Assembly (NCBI GenBank): GCA_000934665.2
Contig: JYFJ02000887.1
Location: forward strand, 1-64,000
Direction: 5' to 3'
Length of the DNA: 64,000 bases
Source of the DNA: Catajapyx aquilonaris
Taxonomy: Eukaryota
Below are positions 6,001-12,000 of the stretch, in pieces. The position numbers were made by a program, and so were the translations under genes. The number at the start of each line of letters is the position of its first letter. Position 1 is the first letter of the stretch. The notes under the pieces were generated by a model that saw nothing but the letters and a program-made list of their open reading frames with translations, ran no database searches and was not told the DNA's origin.

Positions 6001-9000
6001 TGGCTCTCAGAATGACCGCCTCACACTGTCCGTAATTTATTATGCACCACACTAGTATTGGGGGTGCATAGGTCGCCTGGTTTTGGGGAAAAAGAGAAAA
6101 GAAACTGGGAGGAAATAATCAGTCCTCATCTTGGGCCCATTCTCCAAGTTACTCTTTAGTGGTGCTTTATACCTCGTCATGCTGGTTAGTTGTCAGTGTA
6201 TATCCACACCGATTCCCACATCACAACAGTGATTTGAGCATCAGGTCGCTCAAAAATGAAGAGGTAAGTGAGTCTTTGTGAAAGTGACTAGTCACTTGGC
6301 GTCTGTTACGGATTTTTAAATATGCACATCTTAGATTCCACTGTACTTTGCCAGTTACATTCACCAAAGCTTGTGTGACCTTGAACACACAAAATTTCGC
6401 CTGCGGCCAGCTTGTTCCTGGCCCACACTAAAGTTCACACAGGCTGATGTGGCCTTCTATCAAATCCAGTTTGAGACCCCTGCTCTAGGATGAAATATCA
6501 ACATACAGCTTGAAAATACCTACAGGTAAAAACAGCCAAAAAAATGCACATAAGTGCCTTTGGCATATCGATGATGTTAGTGCTCCATCACGAATTTTTC
6601 TCTCCTGAAAAGTGCTCCACGACTCAAAAAGTTTGGGAACCTCTGATCTTGGCTATGTTATATGTCTCTTATTATATGCCATTTTAATGCAATAGTAAAA
6701 TGCGATTTTGCGGCCGAAGTTTTGGTACACATGAGTGGATTTGCTTGATATTTTTCTTCAGCTACCTACCCACTACCCTCACTACTTGCTACCTACCAGG
6801 GCACTCATAACTAATATGTGATTCTGTTTGAAGTGTTTTTTTTGTGATGAGAGGAAATATCAATCAGGATATCACAGATAAGCTACTTCATGTAGCCTTG
6901 GCTATTTCGCCCGTTCCAGAAAAGTTAGGAAAGTGCAACTTCATTTCTTCATTATCATCTAAGAATTTGACTTGAGCATGTGATAATAACAAGTGTTTTC
7001 ATTTCATATGTAATGTTTTTGATTTTTCCAGAGATGATAACTGAAGAACAGAAGGATAAATATGCCCACCTGAACATAGTGGGCTTGGTGGGCTCCATTG
7101 ACAATGACTTCTGTGGGACAGATATGACTATTGGTACAGATTCTGCCCTCCATCGCATCATTGAGGCTGTGGATGCCATTGTCTCCACTGCCTACTCACA
7201 CCAACGCACATTTATTATGGAGGTCATGGGGAGGCATTGCGGGTAAGATAAGTAACATAATCACACAACTTGGTATAGTTATTTGGGGATGATTTGGCAC
7301 TGCAATTGTGTGGAAGGGAATTCTTTTCCAATCCAGTCGCACCACATGATATTAGTTTATCTTTTTTCATTTGGCACAATCACTTTCAAGTGTACTATAC
7401 AGTACATACATCGACGATATTCTTCAGATGTTTTTGTTTGCTTTGGGACTTTTTTTCCTGTCTGCAACATTAGGAGGCTCCTGTAAAAACCCTTCTGCAT
7501 TTGAAGACTGCATGCACTTTGAGTATGCATGTATTTTTCCCCCAGTTCTACAGAGAACTTGAGCACCATGATGACCTCCCTTTATGCCACAGCGACTCTC
7601 GAATATTCCTCAAAATAGGTATGTTTCTTGTGGCAAATCCAAAACATTGACCCTCTCCCCTGTCCTATTTCAGGTTAGTTTATTATTTCATGGAACATTG
7701 TGACTGTGATGGTTGTGATGTGCACAAGTTTCTTTGAGGTTGGAAGGTTTTCTCTGCCAATTGACATTATTGTTGGTCCCATAGGTCTTCCAAAATAAAT
7801 ACAGCTCATTATTTATTGACTGCATCATAGAGTAATGGTTTCATGATACTGCCACTGTTTTTCATATGGAACAAGGAAAATACCATCCCATATTGGTGAA
7901 TATTTGAGGGTCGTAGTGGCATAAAGAAAGATCATCACTGTGCTCAAACTTGCTGTTACACAAGGCACTGAAAAGGTGGCGGTGAAAGACATGGCTCCCA
8001 TACCATACTTACTGCTGTCAGTGTTGTGACACAGCATGTAACAAGGGGCATTTTCTGATTTGATATTTCAATTGCTGAAGTTGTGTTTGAGTTGAATGTA
8101 GATATTTTTGAAAAAAATATATTGCTGGAGAAATAGAGAATGTCTATTCACCTGCACAAATGCAGGCCAACTCATCAAGAATTAACTCTATAGATAATGT
8201 TGAAAGGAAGGTGGTCAACAGACGAAATGGGTAGTATTGGGTGTTATTGGTTCCCTTTTTATGTGCGAGCAGGTATTTGGCGCTGGTGTCGGGGTTGATG
8301 GGGGAAGCAGATTTCATTTTCATCCCTGAATCCCCCCCTGGTAAGGACTGGCCGGAGAAGCTCTGCAAGAAGCTCAGCCAGGCAAGGCTCACACCATCTG
8401 CACAAAATTTCTGCTGAGATGCAATGTTCCAGCTTTTCACTTCATTCTAATCACTGCTTGTGTCACCTGTCCTGTAGCTAGGCCTCTAGGGTGTAGGTTG
8501 GGTGGCTTCTCAGATAGTAATGGTAGAGCATGGTAGGGGTCAGAAGTAAGCCCTGGCCCTTTTTTGCATTCTTGCCGCAGGTACTTGGCCCTCACTGCTG
8601 CAATGTCCACAGAGGCAGACTATTGTTTCATTCCTGAACACCCACACCCTCATGAGTGGCCAGAGATCATGTGCCAGAAGCTTGATGAGGCAAGGGGGTG
8701 TTGTGTGAAATGTGTGTGTTCCTGGTGTTGAGTGTTGTATTTATTATGGTGTTTGTGTGTACCTTATGGGTGAATAGTGTTGTCAGGATGGGGAACTAGG
8801 TGTCTGGCTGGCATGGAAAATGATTGTGTTGGCAAGTGTGACATTTTATGTGGATCAATTTTGAATACTTTGTGAAATATTTGCCCTTGCATTTCAGGTG
8901 TGCTAAATGGCTGTATCTTGCCACAGCGTTCAGGAAGGGTTTTTGTTGTTCAATCCAGTTGCACCATTTACGATGTAGCCTGACTTCATGTTTGTTATTG

Positions 9001-12000
9001 TTATTAATTGGTGAGATTCATTGTTACTAGTAATTAATAAGTAGAAACACACAGGGTAGAGGGTGTACCTTCACTGGAGCAACTGGGCCTTAGGGATTGC
9101 AGCTCTTTCTTCATATGAACCGAGCAGTCAAAAGTAACTTAACATTCTTGAACCATTGATGGTTCCAAGCTAAAAATAAAAACCAAGATAGTTGAAAATG
9201 GTAATTTGATTAGTGCAAATGGGTTTAAGTGTCTGTAGTTGGGCAGATGGAGGTTGTAACTTATGTGCACATTTGCATAGCTGGCCATTCCCTCTTTCCA
9301 TCTCTAATGTTGTCAATATTTTGCATGTGGATGTGATATCTTCATATCTTTCCTACCTTCCTTCACTCACTCACCCGATTCCTTTCCTTTCCTGTAGTTA
9401 CCTCTGCCTAATGGCTGCAATTGCCAGTGAGGCTGACTGTGCCTTCTTTCCTGAATCTCCCCCACTGCCTGGCTGGGAAGAGAAACTCTGCAAAGTGCTC
9501 CAGAAGGCAAGCTTGCCATGCACTTTTTAATTGTGTTTTGCCATGCCATGTGTCAGCCTCGCTTAACAGCTTTGCCACATTTGACATATAAATTGGTTTA
9601 ACTTTTAATTTGCCTACCTGCAGGAACGCAAGACTGGCCAGAGACTGAACATCATAATTGTGGCAGAGGGAGCTATAGACCGGGAAGGAGAGCCCATCAC
9701 TGCAGAGAGAGTGAGGCAGGTAGTAGTGGACAACCTGAAGCAGGACACACGTATCACTGTGCTGGGTCACGTCCAGAGAGGAGGCAGTGCATCAGCATTC
9801 GACAGAGTCCTTGTAAGTTTTTCAAGAGTGGTTTTTCAATGCTAAACTCTCCTGAGAGTTATGAAGCATAAATGTTATGACCAATAATTGAGGGCAAATG
9901 ATGTACAGGGATCGACAGGGATACTCTTGAGGATATGAATGTAGAACTTGGTATCATTTGTCATGTTCACTAGGGTGTGGCCAAGCCAGAATGGCAATAG
10001 ATTGCTACTTCTTTACCCAGTCCTGAAAAGGATCCTTTCTTAAGATATGAGCCAGCATATATTAATTGCAACCAAATAACTTTTGTCTGTATTAAAGTCA
10101 ACCCTTCTTCTCAGTGTGCATCTTCATATATTTTGCCAGGGTTGCCGCATGGGTGCAGAGGCTGTGCTGGCACTCATGGAAGCCACACCAGACACAGAGG
10201 CATGTGTTGTGTCTCTGGATGGCAACCAGGCAGTGAGGGTACCTTTGATGGCATGTGTGGAGAAGACTCAAGAGGTAGCCAAAGCTATGGCTGAGAAGAA
10301 GTGGGATCTGGCTGTGGAGCTCAGAGGAAGGTGGGTTATCTTAGGTAGAGGTTAAGCTCTACTGCTATATGCTGTATTTAATGATTAATTGAATTGCATC
10401 ATTCAGAGCACTGAGATTGCTTGCAGAAAAGTTCACATTTCCTTGCAAACTGTTATCTAGTGTGCTGGTAATTGTGTACACTGTACTCCTGATTATCTGG
10501 GTGACGATTATTGGTTCATAGCCTACAAATAAAATTAAAAATAAAAGTCCGAAAAAATGTCGTTATGTTGCAAACAAGGAAACATAACGGACTGTTTCTA
10601 TAAGACAAACTAAGAATCTATGGAAAGTTTTATTTTTTAATTTAAACCTTATTTTAAGCAGGATAAACTATGTACAATAGTACATTAAAAACCTGTGAAT
10701 AGCTCACTTTTATGGTATCTAGGACCATTTTAGGATTATCCATGTTTTCTGATTATTATCCGGTGACACCCGTACATTCATTAGCCGGGATAATCGAGAG
10801 TACAGTGTACTTATGGGAATGGCTTTTTGAAGACTCTCCTAATTTGTACTTATTGTGCTACTGATGCTAATTTTTTCAGGAGCTTCTCTCGTAATTTGGA
10901 AACATTCAAAATGCTGACCCGCCTCAAACCTCCCAAGCTTTCTACAGAAGAAGTTGACAGGGCATCAGTGAGTTCACAAATCTTTTGTTTGCACTTGTTC
11001 ATTGCTAATAATCTAACATTGGCCCTTTTTTTACATTGTTGATTTGATTTGTGATGCATTAACAACTGACAACAGAAAGTTTCAAGGGTGAGTTTAAATT
11101 GCATACTAATACTCTTGGTGATGGTGATGTTTATGGTACTGCCTGTAACATGCTTGATTAATGTTTTTTCCATTTGAGTTTTAGAGCACATAGCCTAAAA
11201 TAAGGTGATGCTTCTCACTACTACGCATTTCATTTGCCTAGTAGCAAGTAACACATGCTTGCTTAAATTCCATCCCCATTTCATCATTTCCATTTGCCAA
11301 ATTTTTTCCTTTTATGTGATCAGAGTGATGCACTTTATTTATGCATATTATCATGCATGATGTTGTAAAGTCATTGTAATGCATGTTAAGAATTTGGCTT
11401 AGGATAAATTAAAGGAAAAATATTAATTAATTACAAGTACACACATTACAAGTGGACACTGGTCCACTAATAGTTATGCAAAAAAGTAATTGTAACTTGG
11501 CAATTATGAAGCAGGGCATTAAGCATTTTTAAAAAGTCGATTGTGTTGTATGTGGGTGCACACCTTCAAGGGACACTCCACTCAAAATACAAGTTGAATT
11601 CTAAAAATCGGGCAAAAAATCCTGATTCCGAGGGTATAAGCAGTTTTCCTGAGAGACGAACGGTAAGGCCACGGCGAGCCGTCAAAGTTCGGAAATTCGA
11701 ATCTGGCGCAAAAGAGCTGCCCGCCCGGGCCAGTCCGCTCCCTCCGCGCGCGCCGCCAATCGGGACCTGGCAGAAAATGCCTGACATCTCAGCCGTCTTT
11801 GGTCCACGCCATATTTGGGCCGCACGGGTGTCGGGCCGTGGGTTTGCGCCAATTTTGAAGGGGGTTTCCGTGGGCGGCATGCTACCTATTACCCTGGACA
11901 GTAAATCTGCTCACCACAGCACTGTGACTTTACGGGCCAGGGCTGGGCCAGGGTTTAGACTGTGTCCTGACTGTTTATGAAAGGCCCACATATGTGGGCC

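What the first reader, a model, noticed from the sequence alone, without database searches (positions are those of the whole stretch)
8497..9586. Competing RNA base-pairing: two selectors pair with one docking site after exon 4c
Seen (pairing by eye). Selector B, after 4b: TGGCAAGT 8830-8837 with GCTTGCCA 9511-9518, GTGT with GCAC 9520-9523, TGATT with AATTG 9529-9533, AAAA with TTTT 9536-9539, TGGCATGG 8809-8816 with CCATGCCA 9541-9548, CTGGC with GTCAG 9552-9556, TAGGTG with CGCTTA 9560-9565, TGTCAG 8781-8786 with TTGACA 9581-9586, all colinear. Selector A, after 4a: ATGGTAGAGCATGGT 8520-8534 with ATTGTGTTTTGCCAT 9530-9544 (15 contiguous pairs incl. G-U), GTAAGC 8546-8551 with GCTTGC 9511-9516, GTTGGGTG/GCT 8497-8507 with 9555-9567. 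The many G-U pairs work only on the sense RNA. Knowledge: downstream docking/selector competition controls mutually exclusive exons in insect 14-3-3zeta and Mhc. Inference: A-dock loops out 4b and 4c, covers the 4b branch region and the 4c donor, and selects 4a. B-dock selects 4b. With no pairing, 4c is used. This would be a structural switch setting glycolytic enzyme identity.
Basis: partly seen in the sequence, partly recalled or inferred. Interest (0 to 1): 0.9.

Follow-up and report, generated by a model that had tools for sequence, protein, structure and literature searches.

The report
Candidate RNA switch in phosphofructokinase exons
An arthropod phosphofructokinase gene carries three alternative copies of one exon, and the intron after the last copy can base-pair with a stretch after the middle copy somewhat better than chance, but the proposed second pairing is no better than chance and the switch is unproven.

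Summary
The window holds an arthropod 6-phosphofructokinase gene on the + strand. It has three tandem homologous 109-nt exons: 4a 8273-8381, 4b 8581-8689 and 4c 9398-9506. Each is followed by a rare GC donor. A spliced transcript contig joins exon 3 to 4b to exon 5, which proves the GC-AG intron and the skipping of 4a and 4c.

The selectors are G+U-rich, so shuffled controls also pair strongly.

- **Selector B with the dock** is modestly above chance. It is the best of 3185 windows across the 64 kb. At intron level it is matched by 3 of 210 shuffled docks and 4 of 140 natural pseudo-docks.
- **Selector A with the dock** is not above chance (22 of 100 shuffles, 39 of 140 pseudo-docks).

Ensemble folding pairs the dock locally instead, partly through a 12-bp stem with exon 4c. 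No close relatives could be fetched, so conservation is untested. Two distant hexapod loci repeat the GCAUGG / CCAUGY boxes, but not significantly (57 of 300 shuffles).

Verdict: a plausible but unproven member of the docking-site/selector class. B is credible and A is weak.

The parts
7032..7243 (+). Constitutive exon 3 of the phosphofructokinase gene (upstream neighbour of the cluster)
   Evidence: tblastn with insect PFK proteins, 7037-7243. Transcript contig piece 7032-7241, joined on to 8580.
8273..8381 (+). Variant exon 4a, 109 nt (3n+1), open frame, PFK-like
   Evidence: AG acceptor and open frame. tblastn 52-57% identity to insect PFK residues at this position. No transcript seen here.
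8382..8387 (+). GC donor after 4a (GCAAGG)
   Evidence: Sequence read and frame continuity with exon 5. Use not shown.
8497..8551 (+). Candidate selector A, containing a GCAUGG box at 8528-8533
   Evidence: Pairs as drawn. Not above chance at intron level: 22/100 and 39/140 controls as good.
8581..8689 (+). Variant exon 4b, 109 nt, used in the one transcriptome found
   Evidence: Contig joints 7241->8580 and 8687->9622 (ambiguous by 3, giving GC..AG), depth 37.9. Frame.
8690..8695 (+). GC donor after 4b (GCAAGG), used
   Evidence: joint.
8696..8765 (+). UG-rich tract directly after the 4b donor
   Evidence: Sequence read. Function inferred only.
8781..8837 (+). Candidate selector B. Core 8809-8837, with a GCAUGG box at 8811-8816.
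   Evidence: 46 valid pairs, -41.2 kcal/mol. Best of 3185 windows. 3/210 shuffled docks and 4/140 pseudo-docks as good.
9398..9506 (+). Variant exon 4c, 109 nt, open frame, PFK-like
   Evidence: No transcript seen here.
9426..9437 (+). Arm inside exon 4c that pairs with 9552-9563 (12 bp, 92% Watson-Crick)
   Evidence: the repeat finder pair I21. Present in the MFE and centroid folds. Exon 4c against the last intron: 10/300 shuffles as good.
9507..9512 (+). GC donor after 4c (GCAAGC). Its positions +5/+6 lie inside the dock.
   Evidence: Paired in the B-dock model.
9511..9586 (+). Candidate docking site. Two CCAUGC boxes (9516-9521, 9541-9546) and CCAUGU (9546-9551). The 3' part, 9552-9563, also pairs with exon 4c.
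   Evidence: Alone it has no unusual structure (z +0.55).
9624..9812 (+). Constitutive exon 5
   Evidence: Translation. 92% identity at best to insect PFKs. Contig joints.

Best explanation
The finding lies in the mutually exclusive exon-4 cluster of an arthropod phosphofructokinase gene.

**Shown:**
- There are three homologous 109-nt exons, each followed by a weak GC donor.
- 4b is spliced to exon 5 across 4c through a GC-AG intron.
- 109 = 3n+1, so including two variants or none breaks the reading frame.

**Inferred, most likely mechanism:**
- The short last intron carries a docking site (core 9511-9548) that begins inside the 4c donor.
- This site can pair with selector B (core 8809-8837), about 120 nt after the 4b donor.
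- The duplex would loop out exon 4c, cover the 4c donor, and bring the weak 4b donor close to the exon-5 branch site and acceptor, favouring 4b.
- A second segment after 4a (8497-8551) can be drawn onto the same dock bases and would favour 4a in the same way. That pairing is not distinguishable from chance.
- Exclusivity at the mRNA level is probably backed up by frame-shift and nonsense-mediated decay.
For: **Gene and cluster.**. The same exon is alternative in many insects, Daphnia and springtails: different variants appear in isoforms of one species.

**Use of 4b and of its GC donor.**. The other 8 of 9 introns of that contig are GT-AG.

**B-dock.**
- All 46 drawn pairs are valid, and 29 consecutive selector bases are paired.
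- It is the best partner of the last intron among 3185 windows of the 64 kb, and among 109 G+U-rich windows.
- Controls as good: 1/40 and 2/170 shuffled docks, 4/140 natural pseudo-docks, and 6/300 selector shuffles for 8800-8845.

**Motif clustering.** In the first 10 kb of the window, GCATGG or its complement occurs only at 8528(+), 8811(+), 9516(-) and 9541(-). That is once after 4a, once after 4b and twice in the dock.

**Placement.** The dock leaves the last 37 nt of the intron (branch/pyrimidine region) free.

**No competing dock upstream.** An upstream dock shows nothing (76/100 and 97/100 shuffles as good).

**Literature.** Right and left introns of MXE clusters tend to pair with internal introns. 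Drosophila Pfk is listed there as a 3-exon MXE cluster with no structure reported (PMC6071210, passages read).
Against: - A-dock is not above chance (22/100; 39/140; 19/300 for the picked 8510-8555 window).
- Watson-Crick-only complementarity is at chance for both introns.
- In the all-against-all scan, 56 pairs of 25200 score better than B-dock.
- With unlimited duplex length the signal fades (15/150 and 5/150).
- The equilibrium ensemble of 8382-9623 pairs the dock within its own intron (18.6 nt) and with exon 4c (16.2 nt). Only 0.20 nt go to the selector B region and 0.28 nt to the selector A region. The selectors pair with nearer partners.
- The two internal introns show no sequence similarity that would mark selectors as duplicated elements (192/300 shuffles as good).
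- In the termite-like and springtail-like loci, duplex energies between the GCAUGG-bearing segments and the last intron are not above shuffles (28/300, 31/300, 206/300; 28/100).
- The shared-hexamer pattern arises in 57/300 shuffles.
- Only the 4b form was seen as RNA.
Confidence: 0.42

Rival explanations
1. There is no functional long-range pairing. The complementarity is what G+U-rich introns give against any partner. Exon choice is set by weak GC donors together with protein factors on intronic elements, such as the UG-rich tract after 4b or the GCAUG boxes. Frame-shift and nonsense-mediated decay remove double or zero inclusion.
For: - Shuffled controls already reach -37 to -40 kcal/mol.
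- A is at chance.
- B-dock ranks only 57th of 25200 pairs.
- Watson-Crick-only complementarity is at chance.
- The ensemble fold ignores the long-range pairs.
- The exons are 3n+1. NMD backs mutual exclusion in 14 of 19 non-3n clusters of C. elegans, and GC donors are weak (PMC4165533, passages).
- A UG-rich tract lies at 8696-8765.
Against: - B-dock is still the best partner of the last intron in the 64 kb, and only 1.4-2.9% of intron-level controls reach it.
- The four GCATGG/CCATGC boxes cluster with the orientation that the pairing needs.
- No binding protein was or could be tested here.
Confidence: 0.4
2. The functional structure is local, not long-range. A stem between the body of exon 4c (9426-9437, extended over 9412-9442) and the last intron (9552-9577) encloses the 4c GC donor in a hairpin and tunes use of 4c. 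The 'dock' is the 3' arm of this hairpin.
For: - A 12-nt arm pair is 92% complementary with a 114-nt loop (I21).
- The stem is present in the MFE and centroid of 9398-9623 and in the 1242-nt fold.
- Exon 4c against the last intron scores -30.0, with 10/300 shuffles as good.
- The pair ranks 12th of 25651 in the 30-nt scan.
- The match is specific to 4c: -23.2 against -13.4 (4b) and -10.1 (4a) for the homologous exon segments.
Against: - The 226-nt segment as a whole is not unusually stable (z -0.98, 31/200 shuffles as good).
- Its significance is about the same as for B-dock.
- No analogous stem exists for 4a or 4b with their own introns (128/150 and 108/150).
- Conservation is untested.
- It does not exclude B-dock, which overlaps it only at 9552-9563.
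Confidence: 0.2
3. The GCAUGG boxes after 4a and 4b are binding sites of an Rbfox-type protein (core GCAUG, recalled from general knowledge) that enhance the exon upstream of them. Their complementarity to the dock is incidental.
For: - GCAUG lies at 8528 and 8811, and a full UGCAUG at 9322, 75 nt before the 4c acceptor.
- GCATGG recurs in internal introns of two other hexapod loci: three times in the 327-nt intron of L007, and once in L004 with overlapping TGCATG.
- RBFOX proteins regulate a mutually exclusive pair in C. elegans egl-15 (PMC4165533, passage).
Against: - GCATG is not enriched in the cluster. There are 3 in about 900 nt of internal intron against 1.45 per kb in the whole window.
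- At both window sites and all three L007 sites the base before GCAUG is G or A, not U; only the overlapping pair in L004 is preceded by U.
- This reading does not explain the CCAUGC/CCAUGU boxes after the last variant.
Confidence: 0.12

Closest known systems
Drosophila 14-3-3zeta exon 5 cluster (downstream docking site, three variants)
   Same: Three tandem homologous variants. A dock is proposed in the intron after the last variant, with selectors in the internal introns. Pairing loops out the intervening variants and brings the chosen donor near the constitutive acceptor. The downstream position of the dock in 14-3-3zeta, Mhc and MRP1 is stated in PMC6071210 and PMC4691838 (passages).
   Different: That case rests on conservation and mutagenesis (Yang et al. 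2011, recalled; not read here). Here only one of two selectors beats controls, there are no conservation data, and all variants have GC donors.
Dscam1 exon 6 (upstream dock) and exon 4/9 (downstream dock) clusters
   Same: One dock competes for many selectors, and splice sites are brought close together (PMC11802352 and PMC4691838, passages).
   Different: Those docks are strongly conserved and the selectors share a consensus. Here the two internal introns share no significant similarity, and an upstream dock shows no signal.
Drosophila melanogaster Pfk three-exon MXE cluster
   Same: Same enzyme and same cluster size (PMC6071210, passage). Dipteran PFK isoforms differ at this same exon.
   Different: That paper reports no competing structure for Pfk. 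No Drosophila DNA could be examined here, so exon-by-exon orthology and donor type are untested.
C. elegans let-2 exons 9/10 with a GC donor in intron 10
   Same: A rare, weak GC donor flanks a mutually exclusive exon (PMC4165533, passage).
   Different: let-2 has 3n exons and a 30-nt intervening intron (steric exclusion), and is regulated by ASD-2. Here the exons are 3n+1, the intervening introns are 199 and 708 nt, and all three donors are GC.
Human ATE1 exons 7a/7b (competing intronic elements)
   Same: Two intronic elements compete for one partner to choose between two exons (PMC7797038, abstract in search listing only).
   Different: It is a vertebrate gene with two exons, and the conserved elements were verified experimentally.

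Membership tests
Docking-site/selector competing RNA structures of mutually exclusive exon clusters | Tandem homologous variant exons between two constitutive exons, of which one is included | tested here: met
   Three 109-nt exons, 16-19 of 36 residues identical pairwise. A contig includes 4b only. The same exon is alternative in other arthropods.
Docking-site/selector competing RNA structures of mutually exclusive exon clusters | One docking site in a flanking intron that pairs with an internal intron better than chance | tested here: inconclusive
   B-dock: 3/210 shuffles and 4/140 pseudo-docks as good, and the best of 3185 windows. But it ranks 57 of 25200 in the all-against-all scan and gets no weight in the ensemble fold.
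Docking-site/selector competing RNA structures of mutually exclusive exon clusters | A selector for each further variant, pairing with overlapping dock bases | tested here: not met
   The footprints overlap. But A-dock is not above chance: 22/100 and 39/140.
Docking-site/selector competing RNA structures of mutually exclusive exon clusters | Conservation and covariation of dock and selectors in related species | not testable with these tools
   No genome is held for the window. The best protein identity anywhere is 92% (exon 5) and 81% (203-aa exon). Metagenome loci come only from distant arthropods. Genome contigs are bacterial only. The distant-locus box test gives 57/300.
Docking-site/selector competing RNA structures of mutually exclusive exon clusters | Disruptive and compensatory mutations change and restore exon choice | not testable with these tools
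   Needs an experiment.
Frame-enforced (NMD-backed) mutually exclusive exons | Variant length not a multiple of three, so double or zero inclusion shifts the frame | tested here: met
   Each exon is 109 nt = 3n+1. The decay itself was not tested.
GC-AG introns | Intron begins with GC and ends with AG, and is spliced | tested here: met
   Donors are GCAAGG, GCAAGG and GCAAGC. Splicing is shown for the 4b-to-exon-5 intron only.
Rbfox-type (U)GCAUG intronic splicing elements | GCAUG enriched or conserved beside the regulated exons | tested here: inconclusive
   Present at 8528, 8811 and 9322, but density is near the window background of 1.45 per kb. It recurs in L007 and L004.

The most novel reading that the evidence does not exclude
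The last intron holds a three-way RNA switch that is old in hexapods. Selector A, selector B and a 12-nt element inside exon 4c itself (9426-9437) all claim overlapping bases of one site (9511-9563) that starts inside the 4c donor. Because every variant has a deliberately weak GC donor (6 of 7 variant donors seen in four arthropod loci), whichever partner holds the site decides which donor reaches the exon-5 acceptor. The GCAUGG / CCAUGY core of this switch is shared with termite and springtail PFK genes.
Probability: 0.12. Interest if true: 0.7.

Novelty: new member of a known kind. Interest (0 to 1): 0.4.

Why it matters
Phosphofructokinase is the committed, allosterically controlled step of glycolysis. 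The variant exon replaces 36 residues of the catalytic half, so exon choice would give tissue- or stage-specific enzyme forms.

If the B-dock pairing is real, it adds a metabolic enzyme to the short list of genes whose mutually exclusive splicing is set by competing RNA structures. It would also link that mechanism to conserved weak GC donors.

No paper in the searched library reports a competing RNA structure for Pfk or holds GC-AG together with phosphofructokinase in an insect context. The present evidence makes this a testable candidate, not a result.

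Tried and rejected
- **Own genome:** not held, so no paralogue or repeat search was possible.
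- **Sequencing runs:** no RNA holder is listed. The one holder, X1, is of unknown kind. Its contigs cover 4b but not 4a or 4c, which says nothing about whether 4a or 4c are used.
- **Orthologous introns:** the metagenome scan gave only distant arthropod loci. L001-L004 are termite-like; only L004 reaches a variant exon, and its last intron is 5.4 kb. L007 is springtail-like, and L018 has one variant. The genome-contig scan gave only bacterial PFKs.
- **Termite loci:** they are 89-91% identical to each other throughout the intron, so they carry no useful contrast, and none holds the selector side except L004.
- **Earlier findings of the scan:** none.
- **Upstream-dock (Dscam exon 6 type) alternative:** no signal.
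- **Homology between the introns after 4a and 4b, and between them and the last intron:** none.
- **Unlimited-length duplex of whole introns:** uninformative, because long zippers dominate.
- **Motif paper PMC3303723:** no mention of Pfk, GCAUG or structure.
- **Third protein search:** not spent, because the first two showed that no close relative is in that collection.

Full report
**What the region is.**
- The window carries a 6-phosphofructokinase gene on the + strand. tblastn with insect PFK proteins maps exons from about 2995 to 14830.
- The translated exon 5 is at most 92% identical to any database protein. A 203-residue exon is at most 81% identical, with insects on top and crustaceans and chelicerates at about 76%.
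- The source is therefore an arthropod, probably a hexapod, with no close relative in the collections I could reach.
- Between exon 3 (to 7243) and exon 5 (from 9624) lie three homologous exons of 109 nt each: 4a 8273-8381, 4b 8581-8689 and 4c 9398-9506. All have open frames. They share 16-19 of 36 residues and 59-66 of 108 bases pairwise.
- Each is followed by a GC donor: GCAAGG, GCAAGG and GCAAGC.
- One public run (X1, kind not recorded) holds a 2771-nt contig that lies on ten exon blocks. It joins 7241 to 8580 and 8687 to 9622. The latter joint is ambiguous by three bases and therefore reads GC..AG. The other eight introns of that contig are GT..AG.
- So 4b is used, 4a and 4c are skipped in that molecule, and the GC-AG intron is real.
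- The same exon is alternative elsewhere. Isoforms of single species (thrips, Lepidoptera, phylloxera, Daphnia, Anopheles) differ exactly here. Drosophila Pfk is listed as a three-exon mutually exclusive cluster (PMC6071210, passage).

**The observation.**
- All 15 strings checked are at the stated coordinates.
In its core, 29 consecutive bases (8809-8837) are all paired to 9511-9548, with four small bulges on the dock side.
- The two explicit A helices are 21 valid pairs (14 Watson-Crick, 7 G-U), -22.1 kcal/mol.
- Both use 9510-9553, so they would exclude each other.

**Is it more than chance?**
- The selectors are 67.5-70% G+U. Such sequence pairs with almost anything. Shuffles as good: A 3/500 and 9/500, B 2/500 and 4/500.
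- Those windows were picked by eye, so I asked the intron-level question: how good is the best 40-nt window of the whole intron against the whole last intron?
- For the 4b-4c intron the best window is selector B (-38.9 at 8800). It is reached by 1/40 and 2/170 shuffled docks and by 4/140 natural 117-nt pseudo-docks from elsewhere in the window. None of 3185 windows across the 64 kb, and none of the 109 G+U-rich ones, reaches it.
- For the 4a-4b intron the best window is selector A (-33.7). It is reached by 22/100 shuffled docks and 39/140 pseudo-docks. In the 64-kb scan 28/3185 windows reach -33.2, as do 13/109 G+U-rich windows.
- Both thresholds together are met by 2/140 pseudo-docks, a figure carried by B.
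- Less favourable measures:
  - Watson-Crick-only complementarity is at chance for both.
  - Whole-intron duplexes of unlimited length give 15/150 and 5/150.
  - In an all-against-all 45-nt scan of 7244-9623, B-dock ranks 57th and A-dock 80th-92nd of 25200 pairs.
- One simple fact favours the model. In the first 10 kb, the hexamer GCATGG or its complement occurs only four times: after 4a (8528, +), after 4b (8811, +) and twice in the dock (9516 and 9541, -). It occurs 31 times in the whole 64 kb. I chose the motif after seeing it.

**Competing local structure.**
- Folding 8382-9623 as one molecule gives the dock bases 9511-9586 to partners in their own intron (18.6 nt expected) and in exon 4c (16.2 nt). 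Only 0.20 nt go to the selector B region and 0.28 nt to the selector A region. The selectors pair with nearer sequence.
- The exon-4c contact is a 12-nt arm pair, 9426-9437 with 9552-9563 (92% complementary). It appears in the MFE and centroid folds.
- Exon 4c against the last intron scores -30.0, reached by 10/300 shuffles. That is about as significant as B-dock.
- This stem is specific to 4c (-23.2 against -13.4 and -10.1 for the homologous parts of 4b and 4a). It encloses the 4c donor.
- Equilibrium folding often misses long-range contacts, so this weakens the docking model but does not exclude it.

**Other species.**
- No close relative could be fetched. Three distant arthropod genomic loci came from metagenomes.
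- L004 is termite-like. Its last variant is at 520-627, with donor GCAAGG, then a 5.4-kb intron. It has CCATGT 35 nt into that intron and GCATGG 255 nt before the variant.
- L007 is springtail-like. It has two variants, both with GC donors, three GCATGG in the 327-nt intron between them, CCATGT 51 nt into the last intron, and CCATGC upstream.
- L018 has a GT donor and no boxes.
- Taken without hindsight, GCATGG is the only one of the four hexamers common to all four internal-intron stretches that has a pairing partner in all three last introns. But at least one such hexamer arises in 57/300 shuffles.
- Duplex energies to the last intron in L004 and L007 are not above shuffles (28/300, 31/300, 206/300; 28/100).
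- In L007 the internal intron pairs best with the intron upstream of the first variant seen (-32.4, 1/100 shuffles). That loops out the flanked exon but reverses the orientation seen in the window.
- The clearest shared feature is the donor. Six of seven variant-exon donors seen in genomic DNA are GC (window 3, L004 1, L007 2, L018 GT). Three annotated proteins of a termite and two Timema species read through the exon end as Q-A-R, as a missed GCAAG donor would give.

**Mechanism.**
- Shown: the cluster, the GC donors, the use of 4b, and the 3n+1 length.
- Inferred: with three weak donors competing for one acceptor, a duplex between selector B and the dock would loop out 4c, cover positions +2 to +12 of its donor and shorten the path from the 4b donor to the exon-5 branch region. 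This is the logic described for downstream docks in 14-3-3zeta, Mhc and MRP1 (PMC6071210 and PMC4691838, passages).
- The same drawing for A would select 4a, but I cannot tell it from chance.
- The model leaves open how the exon-3 donor finds the matching acceptor. Frame-shift plus nonsense-mediated decay probably removes mistakes, as in 14 of 19 non-3n clusters of C. elegans (PMC4165533, passage).
- Rivals: no functional pairing, with protein factors on the UG-rich tract 8696-8765 or on GCAUG boxes; the local exon-4c hairpin; or a mixture. The GCAUG density in the cluster is near background.

**Comparison and novelty.**
- If real, this is a further member of the docking-site/selector class, closest in layout to 14-3-3zeta.
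- Membership is not established. One defining feature (a selector for each further variant that beats chance) was tested and not met for A. Conservation and mutational tests could not be run.
- My searches found no paper that reports a competing RNA structure for Pfk. The one paper that lists the Drosophila Pfk cluster reports no structure for it. I could not open its supplement.
- The all-GC-donor feature did not turn up for insect PFK.

**Verdict.**
It is partly above chance: B yes, modestly; A no.
- Interest is moderate.

Noticed in passing
window 8382-8387, 8690-8695, 9507-9512; L004 628-633; L007 232-237 and 667-672: Every variant exon of the window's cluster has a GC donor. Across four arthropod genomic loci, 6 of 7 variant donors are GC (L018 has GT), while the other 8 introns of the transcript contig are GT-AG. 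Annotated termite and Timema proteins read through the exon end as Q-A-R, as if predictors missed a GCAAG donor.
   Followed up: partly
window 9426-9437 with 9552-9563: A 12-nt stem between the body of exon 4c (the codons of the conserved S-E-A-D stretch) and the following intron encloses the 4c GC donor in a 114-nt loop. 10/300 shuffles are as good, and the match is specific to 4c among the three exons.
   Followed up: partly
window 8696-8765: A strongly UG-rich tract lies directly after the 4b donor. It could be a binding platform for UG-binding splicing factors. It also inflates all duplex energies in this intron.
   Followed up: no
window 7550-7619 and 7887-7956: An inverted repeat of 70 nt (76% complementary; 95 nt at 74% by blastn) lies inside the intron before the cluster. 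It is the strongest duplex of the whole region (-50.8 kcal/mol) and has no other copy in the window.
   Followed up: partly
window 4802-5735: Inside the 4273-7031 intron of the PFK gene, contigs of run X1 pile up to a word depth of 2138, with many loose ends and variants. This suggests a repeat or a separately and highly expressed element. There is no second copy in the window.
   Followed up: partly
L007 48-57 with 305-315: In the springtail-like locus, a 10-bp helix (GCCCAUGCUU with GGGGCAUGGGC) flanks a variant exon. The internal intron against the upstream intron scores -32.4, with 1/100 shuffles as good. This is the same box as in the window but in the opposite arrangement.
   Followed up: partly
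window 9322-9327: A full UGCAUG lies 75 nt before the 4c acceptor. It is the only one inside the cluster's internal introns.
   Followed up: no
window 8884-8897: An acceptor-like pyrimidine stretch ending in CAG lies 317 nt after the start of 4b, matching the 308-nt spacing from 4a to 4b. What follows has no PFK-like frame. It may be the remnant of a further duplication unit.
   Followed up: no
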